In this document: positions 52,201-55,200 of the stretch, in pieces
Layout: each line of letters begins with the position of its first letter
Numbering within the stretch: the first letter of the stretch is position 1
NCBI GenBank assembly: GCA_964270895.1
Contig: OZ185435.1
Origin: Podarcis filfolensis
Lineage: Eukaryota
DNA: 64,000 bases
Reading direction: 5' to 3' (one strand)
Position numbers: made by a program

Positions 52201-55200
52201 TAAATCTTTGAAGCATTTTACATACTATTGACAAAAGAAGAAACAAGTCTGAAGCAAAGGTGACATAGATACGGTGCTTTTTTAAAAAATGAAATAACAA
52301 ATGTTTTGGTTTTGAACACTGTTCCTTGGCAAGGAAATAACTGGGCAACTTTTTAAGCTGCAACCTCTCTTGGGTTCAGTTCTTTGGCCCTGCAGACAAC
52401 GTGTGCACTGTTACTTCACTTCAGCTCTGTGGGGTAGAAGATAAGCTTGACTGAGAAATCAGTGGAAGATAGAACTAGGATCTTTATGACAACTTGATTG
52501 GGTTATTTCTGAAGCTGCCATTCTGACTTTTTCTAGAAAATGGCTAGCCGCCCTTCTCTGGATCAAAAACCCATCTCCCCAGTCACACAACTGCTTGTTG
52601 AACACCAGGTACCTCTTTGAGAGAAGATAGCTTAAAGCCTTCAGTCCCCTGCATGCTTGAGGATGTTTGCATGGATAGATGGCTTGACATACTCCACTCA
52701 GCTTTTATTAATGGGATCACTATGACCTTACTTGGCAAGGAAAACATTTGGTGACTGTAGCTTCCACTTTTGAAAAGCAGTATTGTGGATGAAAAAAACC
52801 CCCTCTGGAACCTCCTAGAACAGCTATTCAAGATCACTTGAATTAGGTGGTTTATTATTACATTGTAACATCACATAGGAGGGCTAGGAATGGAGAAAAC
52901 ACAGAATAGAGATCTTTTGAAACAGCTTATTAAAAATTAGAACCAAGCTGGTTCAGGATTTCAGGCTTAGTTCCAATAAAGACTATTGGGTTCAGGTTGG
53001 AAAATTGCTGCTAAACTTCAGTTTAACTTGTGAGTCATCAACATAATACGAATGCCCAAGATTTTGTGACCATTTCCATATGTTAAGTTGGAAGCCAACA
53101 ACAGAGTAAAACAGCAAAATTCAATCCCGTCTCCGACACTCAAGTCAAAATGTGCAAGTCAAAATCCAGATTTGTCAGCCAAATTCCACCAGTTAGTCAC
53201 AAGCAGAAGTGTTTCTCAGATTATTAGATGAAGCCCACTAGTAATAACTCATATTTAATTTCTTAAAACACAAAATAGCAGTCAATATCAGGAGCTGTAA
53301 GTTTGGCTCATGCCATCCATGGTGAGTCAGGTATATGACTGGTTTTCAAGCCTTTTACCAGACTCTCAATGTGTGTGTTTCTGTACATGCACATAACAGA
53401 TTAATCTTTACCAACGAAGTGCCATTCAAAACCCGCAGTGTAATTGCAGATGAATTCAACGACAGGAACAAAGTAATAATAGAAGACTTTGGTGTTTAGG
53501 TTCTAATGTGGCCCGTGACTCTACTATACGTAGGCCAGGGGCCTTCTTGTGACATCACAGCCGCTAAGCCAATGGCAGGAAGAGGGGCTGCCCTGTCTTC
53601 AGAGCACCTCTGTTAAAGACATCAACAGGCGGGGCAAGCAGAAGTCAAGGCAAAGTTGTAGCAGGTTAAGGGATGAGGAAAGACAGCAGGACAATAAGGA
53701 AAATGAAACAACTTTTACAGCTCACTGAACAGAACAGTCCTTTAGGACAGTGGGCTCTAGGTCAGGAATCAGAGACTGCATTTTATAAGGAGGGCCATGG
53801 GATTGTGACCAAGTCCCAGTGAGGTCCTTCTTAAATTCTCTTGTCCTCGATGCTTTTATAGATGCGGTATCATTTTAAATCACCCCTCTGTATCTAGGTA
53901 GAACTATTATTTTTTATTTTTTTTAAATGGCAGCTAGGATATTCAGGCCTCCAGTTGCACATTAGAACTTTAGTCTGGTTTGATATATGAGCTTAGATCA
54001 GGGGTCAGCAAACTTTTTCATCAGGGGGCCAGTCCACTGTCCCTTAGACCTTGTGGGGGGCCGCACTATATTTTGAAAAATATAAATACCCTGCAAGCCA
54101 GTCCTGCAGCTGCCTCCGGACCTGGAGGAACGTGTTCTGCACGCGCTCAGGAGCATGTTTCGGTGCCCCCCGTTCACCGGCCTTGTTGACGAGCAGCAGC
54201 CGCTCCATCAGCCCATCCCTGCAGAGCTCCCAGGTGGCGTGCACCATGTGCTGCGGCCCATGCATGTGGAGCGCTGGGCAGGTGGCGCGCAGCTCACCCT
54301 CCAGCTGTTCCGGCGCGGCCGCCGAGCGCACCACCAGCAGGTGTGCTGAGCCGGGCACCAGGCACGGGGCCAGCAGGCACGCCAAGCTCTGGCTGAAGCC
54401 CACAATGCGCCCAATGCGCCCGTCATGATGCCCATGGTGCAGCCCAGACCTGCTGCCCACCCGCCAGCCTCTCCGTCCATGGCTGCACCGGGTTTACCTC
54501 AGCATGTGGGTGGCGAGGCTTCGGATTGGCTGCAGGAACTTCTTGCAGCCAATCCGCAGCTGTGCCAGCGTCGGGGAAGTCAGTCCCAGTGTGGTGAGGC
54601 ATCTGCGGCTTCTTTTCAAGGAAACGCCATGCTGTACCAGTTTTGCTCAGCACAGGGCCTGACCAAACGGGCGGCAGTTCCGCGGGCTGGATTTATGAGC
54701 CTGGTGGGCCGTATCCGGGCCCCGGACTGAAGTTTGCTGACCCCTGGCTTAGACCAACAGAAAACAGCCTTTGCTGAAGGGTTTCCAAATTCTCCCAAGG
54801 GGCTTTCTCTGCTTTGTAACAATTAGAGAAGTAATATTGGGTTAAACCTCATCTGAAAAATGGTTTTTGCAGAAATGGGGACTCAAAGCTGACCACCTTA
54901 TGGAAAAGTAAGAGACAATACTAATATTACAAACGTAGTCCGGAAAGCCCATTTCAAGATCTGACCCCCTTTTCCCACTATTTAATTTTCCCCACCACAA
55001 TTTAATTTTCCCCATCCCACAGATTTAAAGCTTTCTCATGTTACGTATGTTACATCATAGGGCATTTGTAAATGTAAAATTATGCAACAATCCCCTCTCT
55101 ACCTGTAAAGCCTTGTACCAACTCACTCTACAGTTTGAGCAACTAAAATCTTCTCTTAGCTACCTACAAGAAGGTTCAAGCTTGAGTAGTAAATCTATGT

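What the first reader, a model, noticed from the sequence alone, without database searches (positions are those of the whole stretch)
54090..54670. A stray SPR 5'-region copy could affect, or confound studies of, lacertid pterin colour polymorphism
Established: SPR acts in pterin/BH4 synthesis, and non-coding variation near SPR has been linked to the orange/red ventral morph of the common wall lizard (Podarcis muralis). Seen: the cargo covers exon 1 and roughly 190 bp upstream of the ATG. Inference: a TE-borne copy could yield piRNAs/siRNAs able to act on native SPR in trans, could carry SPR promoter activity to a site about 11 kb upstream of GRK2, and could attract mis-mapped reads from the SPR 5' region. 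The species here is only inferred from repeats.
Basis: inference. Interest (0 to 1): 0.65.

Follow-up and report, generated by a model that had tools for sequence, protein, structure and literature searches.

The report
Transposon carrying a decayed SPR gene start
A small cut-and-paste transposon between the KDM2A and GRK2 genes of a lacertid lizard carries a broken copy of the start of the pigment gene SPR, and it is one of many such scattered, decaying copies, so it is unlikely to influence lizard colour.

Summary
Window 53999-54746 is a 748-bp non-autonomous, hAT-like DNA transposon with perfect 17-nt terminal inverted repeats and an 8-bp target duplication matching at 7 of 8. On the minus strand its interior holds a copy of sepiapterin reductase (SPR): 190 bp upstream of the ATG at 54480, an exon-1-like stretch (54480-54178), a GT donor and 88 nt of intron 1. 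Eight of 10 PDB hits are SPR. Identity to native lacertid SPR is 72% over 96 columns.

It is not a stray. Ten of 10 similar short proteins come from Podarcis muralis, P. lilfordi and Zootoca vivipara, and the P. lilfordi ones lie on at least six chromosomes. One P. muralis protein reads through the same intron stub and transposon arm to the same stop, so the composite element amplified as a unit.

The copy is broken: net +8 nt, a 30-nt deletion and a lost NADP motif. Twenty-two of 26 residue changes fit CpG deamination, which points to long germline methylation.

A lacertid host is supported; the species is not resolved. Effects on SPR or colour remain untested and look unlikely. An agamid and an amphisbaenian carry separate dispersed sets of SPR exon-1 copies.

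The parts
53991..53998 (.). Left target-site duplication GCTTAGAT
   Evidence: family D12: 53991-54000 against 54747-54756. 7 of 8 bases match the right copy.
53999..54015 (+). Left terminal inverted repeat CAGGGGTCAGCAAACTT
   Evidence: pair I2, 17 nt and 100% complementary. One search finds only two exact sites in the window.
53999..54089 (.). Left transposon arm; the inner border is approximate
   Evidence: On the minus strand, 54094-54044 encodes AGYLYFSKYSAAPHKV followed by a stop. P. muralis protein P0024 ends ...AGYLYFSKYSPAPHKV.
54090..54177 (-). SPR intron-1 stub, 88 nt, beginning with the GT donor at 54177-54176
   Evidence: The read-through peptide GER..APE(H/R)(V/M)Q is shared with P0024, P0029 and P0030.
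54178..54480 (-). SPR exon-1-like coding stretch: 303 nt against 325 nt in the native gene; ATG at 54480-54478
   Evidence: tblastn with P0002 gives 17/22 and 52/88 in two frames. 8 of 10 PDB hits are SPR. 26 of 96 compared codons differ from native lacertid SPRs.
54404..54421 (.). 9-bp tandem duplication (AATGCGCCC twice on the + strand) inside a net +8-nt change that shifts the frame and destroys the TGASRGFG motif
   Evidence: Read. The frame change is visible.
54259..54260 (-). Site of a 30-nt (10-codon) deletion relative to native SPR residues 72-81
   Evidence: A 10-residue gap appears in the alignments.
54481..54670 (-). 190 bp upstream of the ATG: presumed SPR 5'UTR and proximal promoter; the outer border is approximate
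   Evidence: Position only. Its SPR origin was not testable. GC is 0.587 and CpG o/e 0.56.
54511..54567 (.). Near-palindrome holding an ATTGG/CCAAT pair
   Evidence: pair I1, 28-nt arms, 82% complementary. The motifs were read. Their function as NF-Y sites is inferred.
54671..54746 (.). Right transposon arm; the inner border is approximate
54730..54746 (-). Right terminal inverted repeat
   Evidence: pair I2.
54747..54754 (.). Right target-site duplication GCTTAGAC
   Evidence: family D12.

Best explanation
This is a 748-bp non-autonomous cut-and-paste DNA transposon. It is hAT-like by its 8-bp target duplication and its CAGGGG... ends. Its interior is a piece of a lacertid SPR gene taken from genomic DNA: proximal upstream region, exon 1, splice donor and the first 88 nt of intron 1.

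Inferred history:
1. A lacertid ancestor's SPR 5' region was captured once into a deleted transposon. The route was either template switching during gap repair after excision, or two nearby ends moving the DNA between them.
2. The composite was then copied around the genome by a transposase supplied in trans.
3. One copy landed between KDM2A and GRK2, 11.2 kb upstream of the GRK2 start codon and in the same orientation.
4. It has since decayed as methylated, silent DNA.

At this locus it is most likely inert. It cannot encode an enzyme, and there is no sign that it acts on native SPR.

Shown: the ends, target duplication, SPR homology, breaks, multi-copy dispersal in lacertids, the shared cargo/arm junction and the CpG-type decay.
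Inferred: the capture mechanism, the hAT assignment, methylation and inactivity.
For: - Ends and target duplication.
- SPR homology: 8 of 10 PDB hits; tblastn against P. muralis SPR, Expect 3e-24.
- Genomic rather than retro-copy origin: upstream DNA is present, and a GT plus an intron stub are retained.
- Multi-copy family: a profile search of 1.84 billion representatives gave 259 hits at E<=0.001. Of the 150 listed, 97 are shorter than 232 aa.
- The 10 lacertid-like hits I looked up are all lacertid: 2 P. muralis, 7 P. lilfordi on contigs of 6 different lengths (51-137 Mb), and 1 Zootoca.
- Zootoca XP_034990964.1 (P0001) is 63% identical over half the query.
- Shared junction: window ORF against P0024 gives 76/129 identities, running through exon 1, the intron stub and the arm to the same stop. 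The intron-stub peptide is also in P0029 and P0030.
- Tree of 30 rows and 109 columns: the 9 lacertid copies including the window form one clade (97/96*), nested with the 5 native lacertid SPRs (96/91*).
- Decay: 26 differences in 96 codons, of which 22 are explained by one CpG>TpG/CpA change, 2 by other transitions and 2 by transversions. The baseline is about 7%, from 65 TG+CA dinucleotides among 927 possible single changes in 309 nt.
- No Pfam family on either strand and no Rfam match.
Against: - No DNA of any other copy, of a cargo-free relative or of the native SPR locus could be fetched. Copy number, arm consensus, capture breakpoints and nucleotide identity therefore rest on predicted proteins alone.
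- The single clade of copies could be partly an artefact of parallel CpG decay at the same codons. For example, Arg28 became Gln in some copies and Trp in others.
- The cargo still has CpG o/e 0.60 at 65% GC, against 0.2-0.45 in the flanks. It still qualifies as a weak CpG island, so residual promoter activity is not excluded.
- The ATG and the GT donor are intact.
- Several related copies are annotated as first exons of chimeric gene models (P0001, P0048, P0128). Some family members may therefore be transcribed.
- The target duplication fits the recalled hAT consensus nTnnnnAn at only one of its two fixed positions.
Confidence: 0.8

Rival explanations
1. One reading: the copy acts on colour biology. 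It would either yield piRNAs or siRNAs that target native SPR, or it would distort SPR-region genotyping through mis-mapped reads.
For: - The family is multi-copy, which raises the chance of small-RNA production and of collapsed or missing copies in assemblies.
- SPR is the orange-morph locus (PMC6431182, passages).
- The main text of that paper has 0 occurrences of 'repeat', 'repetitive', 'paralog' or 'transposable', so these copies may not have been considered. The supplements were not seen.
Against: - Protein identity is 72%, with two indels.
- The longest run of unchanged codons is 9 (one search list).
- The cargo covers only 190 bp upstream of the ATG, whereas the association lies in a ~7-kb upstream region confirmed by Sanger, PCR and Nanopore sequencing.
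- CpG decay points to silencing of the copy itself, not to action on its parent gene.
Confidence: 0.06
2. A mobile promoter, first exon and splice donor cassette. At this site the copy would drive a transcript toward GRK2, or donate an alternative first exon, as other family members appear to do in gene models.
For: - It has the same orientation as GRK2 and lies 11.2 kb upstream.
- The ATG, the GT donor and an ATTGG/CCAAT pair are kept.
- CpG o/e is 0.60.
- Chimeric models start with SPR-like exon 1: Zootoca eL27-like P0048, Zootoca SPR-like P0001 and Rhineura Mas-like P0128.
Against: - Gene models are predictions, and no expression data were seen.
- The donor context GTGAAC is weak.
- The ORF is frameshifted.
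- The exon-1 phase (1) does not fit the GRK2 exon-1 phase as read.
- CpG decay argues for germline methylation.
Confidence: 0.1
3. Not a transposon. It would be an ectopic or segmental duplication of SPR 5' DNA that happens to be flanked by a chance inverted repeat.
For: No second copy of the element exists in this window, and no transposase is present.
Against: - A perfect 17-nt inverted repeat together with a 7/8 8-bp direct repeat sits exactly at the borders.
- Copies lie on at least six P. lilfordi chromosomes.
- The same arm sequence adjoins the same intron stub in P. muralis P0024.
Confidence: 0.03

Closest known systems
Pack-type (transduplicating) TIR transposons: rice Pack-MULEs (PMC5861414, abstract seen in listing), fungal hAT-mediated amplification of a housekeeping gene (PMC6710886, abstract seen), C. 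elegans Turmoil-1 (PMC2572040, abstract seen)
   Same: A non-autonomous element bounded by inverted repeats and a target duplication. Its interior is a fragment of a host gene from elsewhere, it has no transposase, and the composite has been amplified.
   Different: The host is a vertebrate (lizard), and the carrier is a small hAT-like element. The cargo is specifically a CpG-rich promoter, first exon and donor module. No function or expression has been shown.
Helitron gene capture in vespertilionid bats (PMC4224331, abstract seen in listing)
   Same: A vertebrate DNA transposon that picked up promoter and exon fragments of host genes and spread them.
   Different: Helitrons move by a rolling-circle mechanism and have no inverted repeats or target duplication. 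The element here has both.
hAT-Charlie-type MITEs of tetrapods (comparison recalled from memory; no library of repeat consensus sequences was available)
   Same: Ends beginning CAGGGG, an 8-bp target duplication, a size under 1 kb and G+C-rich subterminal parts.
   Different: Ordinary MITEs carry only remnants of their parent transposon, not a host gene's 5' end.
Native lacertid sepiapterin reductase (P0002 P. muralis, P0199-P0203)
   Same: The N-terminus MDGEAGG..., the EQLEGELRA block and the exon-1 end with its phase are shared. Identity reaches 72% over 96 columns.
   Different: Only exon 1 is present. It is frameshifted, has a 10-codon deletion, and the cofactor motif GFG is changed to GFS. 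It gives no Pfam hit.

Membership tests
hAT superfamily, non-autonomous element | 8-bp target-site duplication | tested here: met
   GCTTAGAT and GCTTAGAC, 7 of 8, directly abutting the inverted repeats.
hAT superfamily, non-autonomous element | Short terminal inverted repeats (about 10-25 bp) starting (C/T)AG | tested here: met
   A 17-nt perfect repeat starting CAGGGG. The defining range is recalled from memory.
hAT superfamily, non-autonomous element | Target duplication fits nTnnnnAn (consensus recalled) | tested here: inconclusive
   A is present at position 7, but position 2 is C rather than T.
hAT superfamily, non-autonomous element | An autonomous partner with the same ends encoding a hAT transposase | not testable with these tools
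   No lizard genome DNA or repeat library could be searched, and there is none in the window.
Pack-type / transduplicating transposon | Interior homologous to a host gene that resides elsewhere | tested here: met
   SPR homology. This locus lies between KDM2A and GRK2. Native SPR is a separate full-length 268-aa gene in five lacertids.
Pack-type / transduplicating transposon | Two or more copies sharing the same cargo/arm junction, showing mobilisation after capture | tested here: met
   The window ORF and P. muralis P0024 align through the intron stub and the arm to the same stop. This rests on protein-level evidence for one junction only.
Pack-type / transduplicating transposon | No transposase of its own | tested here: met
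   The element is 748 bp and gives 0 Pfam families on either strand.
Functional SPR (short-chain dehydrogenase/reductase) | Intact TGxxxGxG cofactor motif and the full three-exon coding sequence | tested here: not met
   The motif region is frameshifted and GFG has become GFS. Only exon 1 is present, with a 30-nt deletion, and Pfam gives 0 hits.
Processed (retro-copied) pseudogene | Intron-less, no upstream promoter DNA, poly-A tail | tested here: not met
   It keeps 190 bp upstream, the GT donor and 88 nt of intron, and ends in inverted repeats rather than poly-A.

The most novel reading that the evidence does not exclude
The same gene module (SPR proximal promoter, exon 1 and start of intron 1) has been picked up and scattered independently in at least two, perhaps three, squamate lineages:
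- Lacertidae;
- the agamid Phrynocephalus forsythii, with 10 of 10 looked-up hits on contigs of 8 different lengths;
- the amphisbaenian Rhineura floridana, with 2 hits.

That pattern would point to a locus-specific cause. One candidate is old transposon ends resident on both sides of SPR exon 1 that repeatedly mobilise it. Another is a selected use of the copies, as small-RNA sources or as portable first exons, in animals that colour themselves with pterins.
Probability: 0.15. Interest if true: 0.75.

Novelty: new member of a known kind. Interest (0 to 1): 0.42.

Why it matters
For colour genetics the result is mostly reassuring. This copy is a decayed, probably silenced relic, too diverged to stand in for native SPR.

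One practical caution follows. Lacertid genomes hold many SPR exon-1 look-alikes. Any of these that are young, polymorphic or collapsed in an assembly could add false C>T or G>A variants at SPR exon 1 and its proximal promoter. They have also already seeded odd gene models, such as 'SPR-like', 'eL27-like' and 'Mas-like' proteins with an SPR N-terminus.

For transposon biology, capture and amplification of a host promoter and first-exon module by a cut-and-paste element is common in plants but rarely documented in vertebrates. Parallel SPR-derived sets in an agamid and an amphisbaenian would be worth a proper genome-level study.

Tried and rejected
- Pfam on the cargo ORFs and on the two long plus-strand ORFs: 0 families.
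- Rfam at E<=1 on 53500-56500: 0 matches.
- Self-BLAST of the element against the window: no second copy. Two weak look-alikes of the terminal repeat, at 4157 and 32954, have 2-3 mismatches and no partner.
- The search for homologous proteins with the cargo ORF, 'longer' proteins: 1100 candidates, none at E<=0.001. Native SPR was reached only through the Zootoca protein P0001.
- Species identification failed. No predicted protein identical to the window's ORF is in the collection, no lizard DNA collection was on hand, and the conserved GRK2 and KDM2A exons cannot separate lacertid genera.
- Literature. Searches 'sepiapterin reductase + transposable element + lizard' (2 papers, both unrelated by title and abstract), 'SPR + pseudogene + Podarcis' (51 papers, 10 listed, none on SPR copies by title) and 'Lacertidae/hAT/MITE/transposable elements' (10 listed, all on plants or insects) found no description of this family.
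- I first took the residues shared by the cargo and P0001 (GFS, QHMVHA, WEL, MER) as proof of a common founder copy. I rejected part of this. H and M are also in native Zootoca and Lacerta SPR, and most of the rest are CpG changes that can recur.
- Structure prediction, complex prediction and the protein atlas were not used, because a broken exon-1 fragment gives them nothing to decide.
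Full report
**What is in the sequence**

Window 53999-54746 (748 bp) is bounded by a perfect 17-nt inverted repeat, CAGGGGTCAGCAAACTT, at 53999-54015 and 54730-54746 (pair I2). Directly outside it lies an 8-bp direct repeat, GCTTAGAT and GCTTAGAC, matching at 7 of 8 (D12).

The 17-mer has only these two exact sites in 64 kb. With up to 3 mismatches there are 4 matches against 0.35 expected, and 0 of 100 shuffles reach 4. Across the whole window only 10 inverted pairs of at least 16 nt lie within 1.5 kb of each other.

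The element stands out in composition: 63% G+C and CpG o/e 0.59, in flanks of 40-43% G+C and CpG o/e 0.20-0.45. The window has no N and no second copy of the element.

**The cargo**

On the minus strand the ORF 54044-54493 (149 aa) hits 10 PDB sequences at E<=10. The best 8 are all sepiapterin reductase; the best has E 3.7e-05 and covers chain residues 16-107. Pfam finds nothing.

tblastn with native P. muralis SPR (P0002, 268 aa) gives 17/22 identities from the start codon (54480-54415) in one frame. It gives 52/88 (54400-54167) in another frame, joint Expect 3e-24.

Reading together gives this layout:
- The ATG is at 54480.
- The exon-like stretch runs to 54178, which is 303 nt against 325 nt in the native gene.
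- It is followed by GT (54177-54176) and 88 nt that match no SPR coding sequence, that is, an intron-1 stub.
- 190 bp lie upstream of the ATG (54481-54670). They include a near-palindrome with an ATTGG/CCAAT pair (I1).

The coding part is broken in three ways:
- A net +8-nt change, which includes a 9-bp tandem duplication at 54404-54421, shifts the frame inside the TGASRGFG cofactor motif.
- Ten codons (native residues 72-81) are missing.
- GFG has become GFS.

Retention of upstream DNA, the donor and an intron piece shows a copy of genomic DNA, not a retro-copy.

**Context**

- Minus-strand exons match GRK2 (beta-adrenergic receptor kinase 1). In each, 13 of 14 PDB hits are GRK2 and the weakest is GRK3.
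- Kinase and PH domain fragments appear.
- An ORF starting MADLEA begins at 42758, inside a CpG island at 42251-44000.
- A minus-strand exon at 63114-63626 matches KDM2A (E 2.7e-38).

The element therefore lies in the KDM2A-GRK2 intergenic region, 11,241 bp upstream of the GRK2 start codon. Its SPR-like part points the same way as both genes.

**Not a stray copy**

The word-based protein search found one near-length relative: 'sepiapterin reductase-like [Zootoca vivipara]' (P0001, 132 aa, 63% identity over half the query). The 'longer' search found nothing. With P0001 as query, native SPRs appeared, led by P. muralis SPR at 75%.

I then ran a profile of the window ORF, P0001 and P0002 (alignment A1) against 1.84 billion representatives. 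It gave 259 hits at E<=0.001, 83 at 1e-10 and 9 at 1e-30. Of the 150 listed, 97 are shorter than 232 aa. Many of these are ordinary truncated SPR models of birds, mammals and fish.

The 10 most lacertid-like hits that I looked up are all lacertid 'uncharacterized' or 'hypothetical' proteins:
- 2 from P. muralis;
- 7 from P. lilfordi, on contigs of six different lengths (51.1, 59.1, 71.8, 85.0, 119.7 and 137.0 Mb);
- 1 from Zootoca, fused to an eL27-like tail.

P. muralis P0024 aligns with the window ORF at 76/129 identities. The alignment runs through exon 1, through the intron stub (GER..HAPE.VQ..) and into the transposon arm (AGYLYFSKYS[A/P]APHKV), ending at the same stop. The intron-stub peptide also occurs in P. 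lilfordi P0029 and P0030. The SPR piece and the arm are therefore one repeated unit: captured first, then amplified.

**Family tree**

I built a tree of 30 rows and 109 kept columns. Before building it I left out three short or chimeric rows (P0064, P0090, P0128). P0114 was never added to the alignment. Inside the script the window row was read across its frameshift with X at the break.

Results:
- The 9 lacertid copies, including the window, form one clade (97/96*).
- That clade is nested with the five native lacertid SPRs (14 rows, 96/91*).
- Inside the copy clade the branching is star-like and the species are mixed. For example, Zootoca P0048 groups with P. lilfordi P0025 and P0029 (94/87).
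- The window's best identity is 72% over 96 columns, to Lacerta agilis SPR.

A caveat applies. Copies decaying at the same CpG sites can be drawn together artificially. Arg28, for instance, became Gln in five copies and Trp in two. The shared junction is independent evidence for a single origin, but only for the window, P0024, P0029 and P0030.

**Decay pattern**

Against the residues found in the five native lacertid SPRs, 26 of 96 comparable codons differ. Twenty-two of these can be undone by a single CpG>TpG/CpA reversal, 2 by other transitions and 2 by transversions.

Only about 7% of all possible single changes in this stretch are of the CpG type: 65 TG+CA dinucleotides in 309 nt, against 927 possible changes. 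The enrichment is typical of methyl-cytosine deamination. From it I infer that the copy has long been methylated in the germline.

Non-CpG change is small (4 of 96 codons), so the copy need not be very old. Its perfect ends agree with that.

From these counts I estimate nucleotide identity to native exon 1 at roughly 85%, plus the two indels. This is an inference; no native DNA was available. The longest run of unchanged codons is 9 (positions 55-63).

The established part is right. In P. muralis, orange colour maps to non-coding DNA immediately upstream of SPR on chromosome 9, with allele-specific expression (PMC6431182, passages read). The authors examined about 7 kb upstream by Nanopore, PCR and Sanger sequencing. 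Their main text has no occurrence of 'transposable', 'repeat', 'repetitive' or 'paralog'.

A lacertid host is supported by the tree and by the shared junction. The species stays open.

The functional inferences are not supported by anything testable here, and the divergence, the breaks and the CpG decay speak against them. What remains possible:
- Weak promoter or first-exon activity. The ATG, the donor, the CCAAT pair and CpG o/e 0.60 are retained, and three relatives are annotated as first exons of chimeric models.
- A mapping nuisance from younger or unassembled family members.

**Seen beyond the finding**

All ten members of a second group of short hits are from the agamid Phrynocephalus forsythii, on contigs of eight different lengths. 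They form their own clade (100/99*) and have a different N-terminus.

Two hits are from the amphisbaenian Rhineura floridana: an 'SPR-like' protein of 113 aa, and a 'Mas-like' protein with an SPR-like N-terminus.

Whether these sit in transposons, and whether they arose from each lineage's own SPR, could not be tested. Independent origin is an inference from two facts: the clades are separate, and the lacertid copies nest among lacertid native genes.

**Comparison and novelty**

The element works like the gene-carrying 'Pack' transposons of plants, the hAT-borne gene amplifications of fungi and the Helitron captures of bats. For those papers I saw only the listing abstracts.

It meets the tested features of a hAT-like non-autonomous element and of a transduplicate. 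It fails every test for a functional SPR or for a retro-copy.

Three searches of the held literature found no description of SPR-bearing transposons in lizards. Repeat libraries such as Repbase or Dfam were not available, so the family may already be catalogued there.

I file it as a new member of a known kind. It is of moderate interest for transposon biology and of low interest for colour genetics.

**What stayed unchecked**
- No eukaryotic genome DNA could be searched, so copy number, nucleotide identity, breakpoints and orthologous-site status are all open.
- The one scan of genome contigs (bacteria and archaea) was not used.

Noticed in passing
Proteins P0041, P0053, P0058, P0059, P0075, P0079, P0081, P0082, P0083 and P0098 (no window coordinates): Ten SPR exon-1-like predicted proteins of the agamid Phrynocephalus forsythii lie on contigs of 8 different lengths. 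They form their own starred clade (100/99*). This is a second, separate dispersed set of SPR 5' copies, in another lizard family.
   Followed up: partly
Proteins P0031 and P0128 (Rhineura floridana): The amphisbaenian also has degenerate SPR exon-1 copies on two chromosomes. One of them is annotated as the N-terminus of a 'proto-oncogene Mas-like' protein.
   Followed up: partly
Proteins P0048/P0172 and P0001 (Zootoca vivipara): RefSeq models 'eL27-like' and 'sepiapterin reductase-like' start with an SPR-like exon 1 spliced to unrelated sequence. These are probably annotation artefacts or chimeric transcripts seeded by family copies.
   Followed up: partly
window 55770-56000 and beyond: An (AAGGT)n run is followed by a G+C-rich repeat that looks like the squamate 'Sauria' tRNA-derived SINE. 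The name is recalled from memory and was not tested.
   Followed up: no
window 9443-9686 and 25925-26180: Two small elements have related 25-28-nt inverted ends (TACAGTGGTACC...), about 190-210 bp apart. They are probably MITEs of one family.
   Followed up: no
window 31555-31871: A 25-nt inverted repeat (CTCTAGAGCAGTGGTTCCCAATTAG), 96% complementary with arms 267 bp apart, marks another MITE-like element.
   Followed up: no
window 47684-47835 and 49697-49883: Two long near-perfect hairpins, with arms of 66 and 86 nt at 89-91% complementarity, sit in the A+T-rich stretch upstream of GRK2.
   Followed up: no
window 1001-2000: A second CpG island (G+C 0.71-0.76, CpG o/e 0.70-0.86) lies downstream of the GRK2 last exon. 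It is presumably the 5' end of the next gene, which was not identified.
   Followed up: no
Protein P0023 (Platysternon megacephalum, TFK14960.1): A full-length turtle SPR carries the GenBank name 'recombination activating protein 1', while UniRef calls it sepiapterin reductase. This is a naming error in the source record.
   Followed up: no
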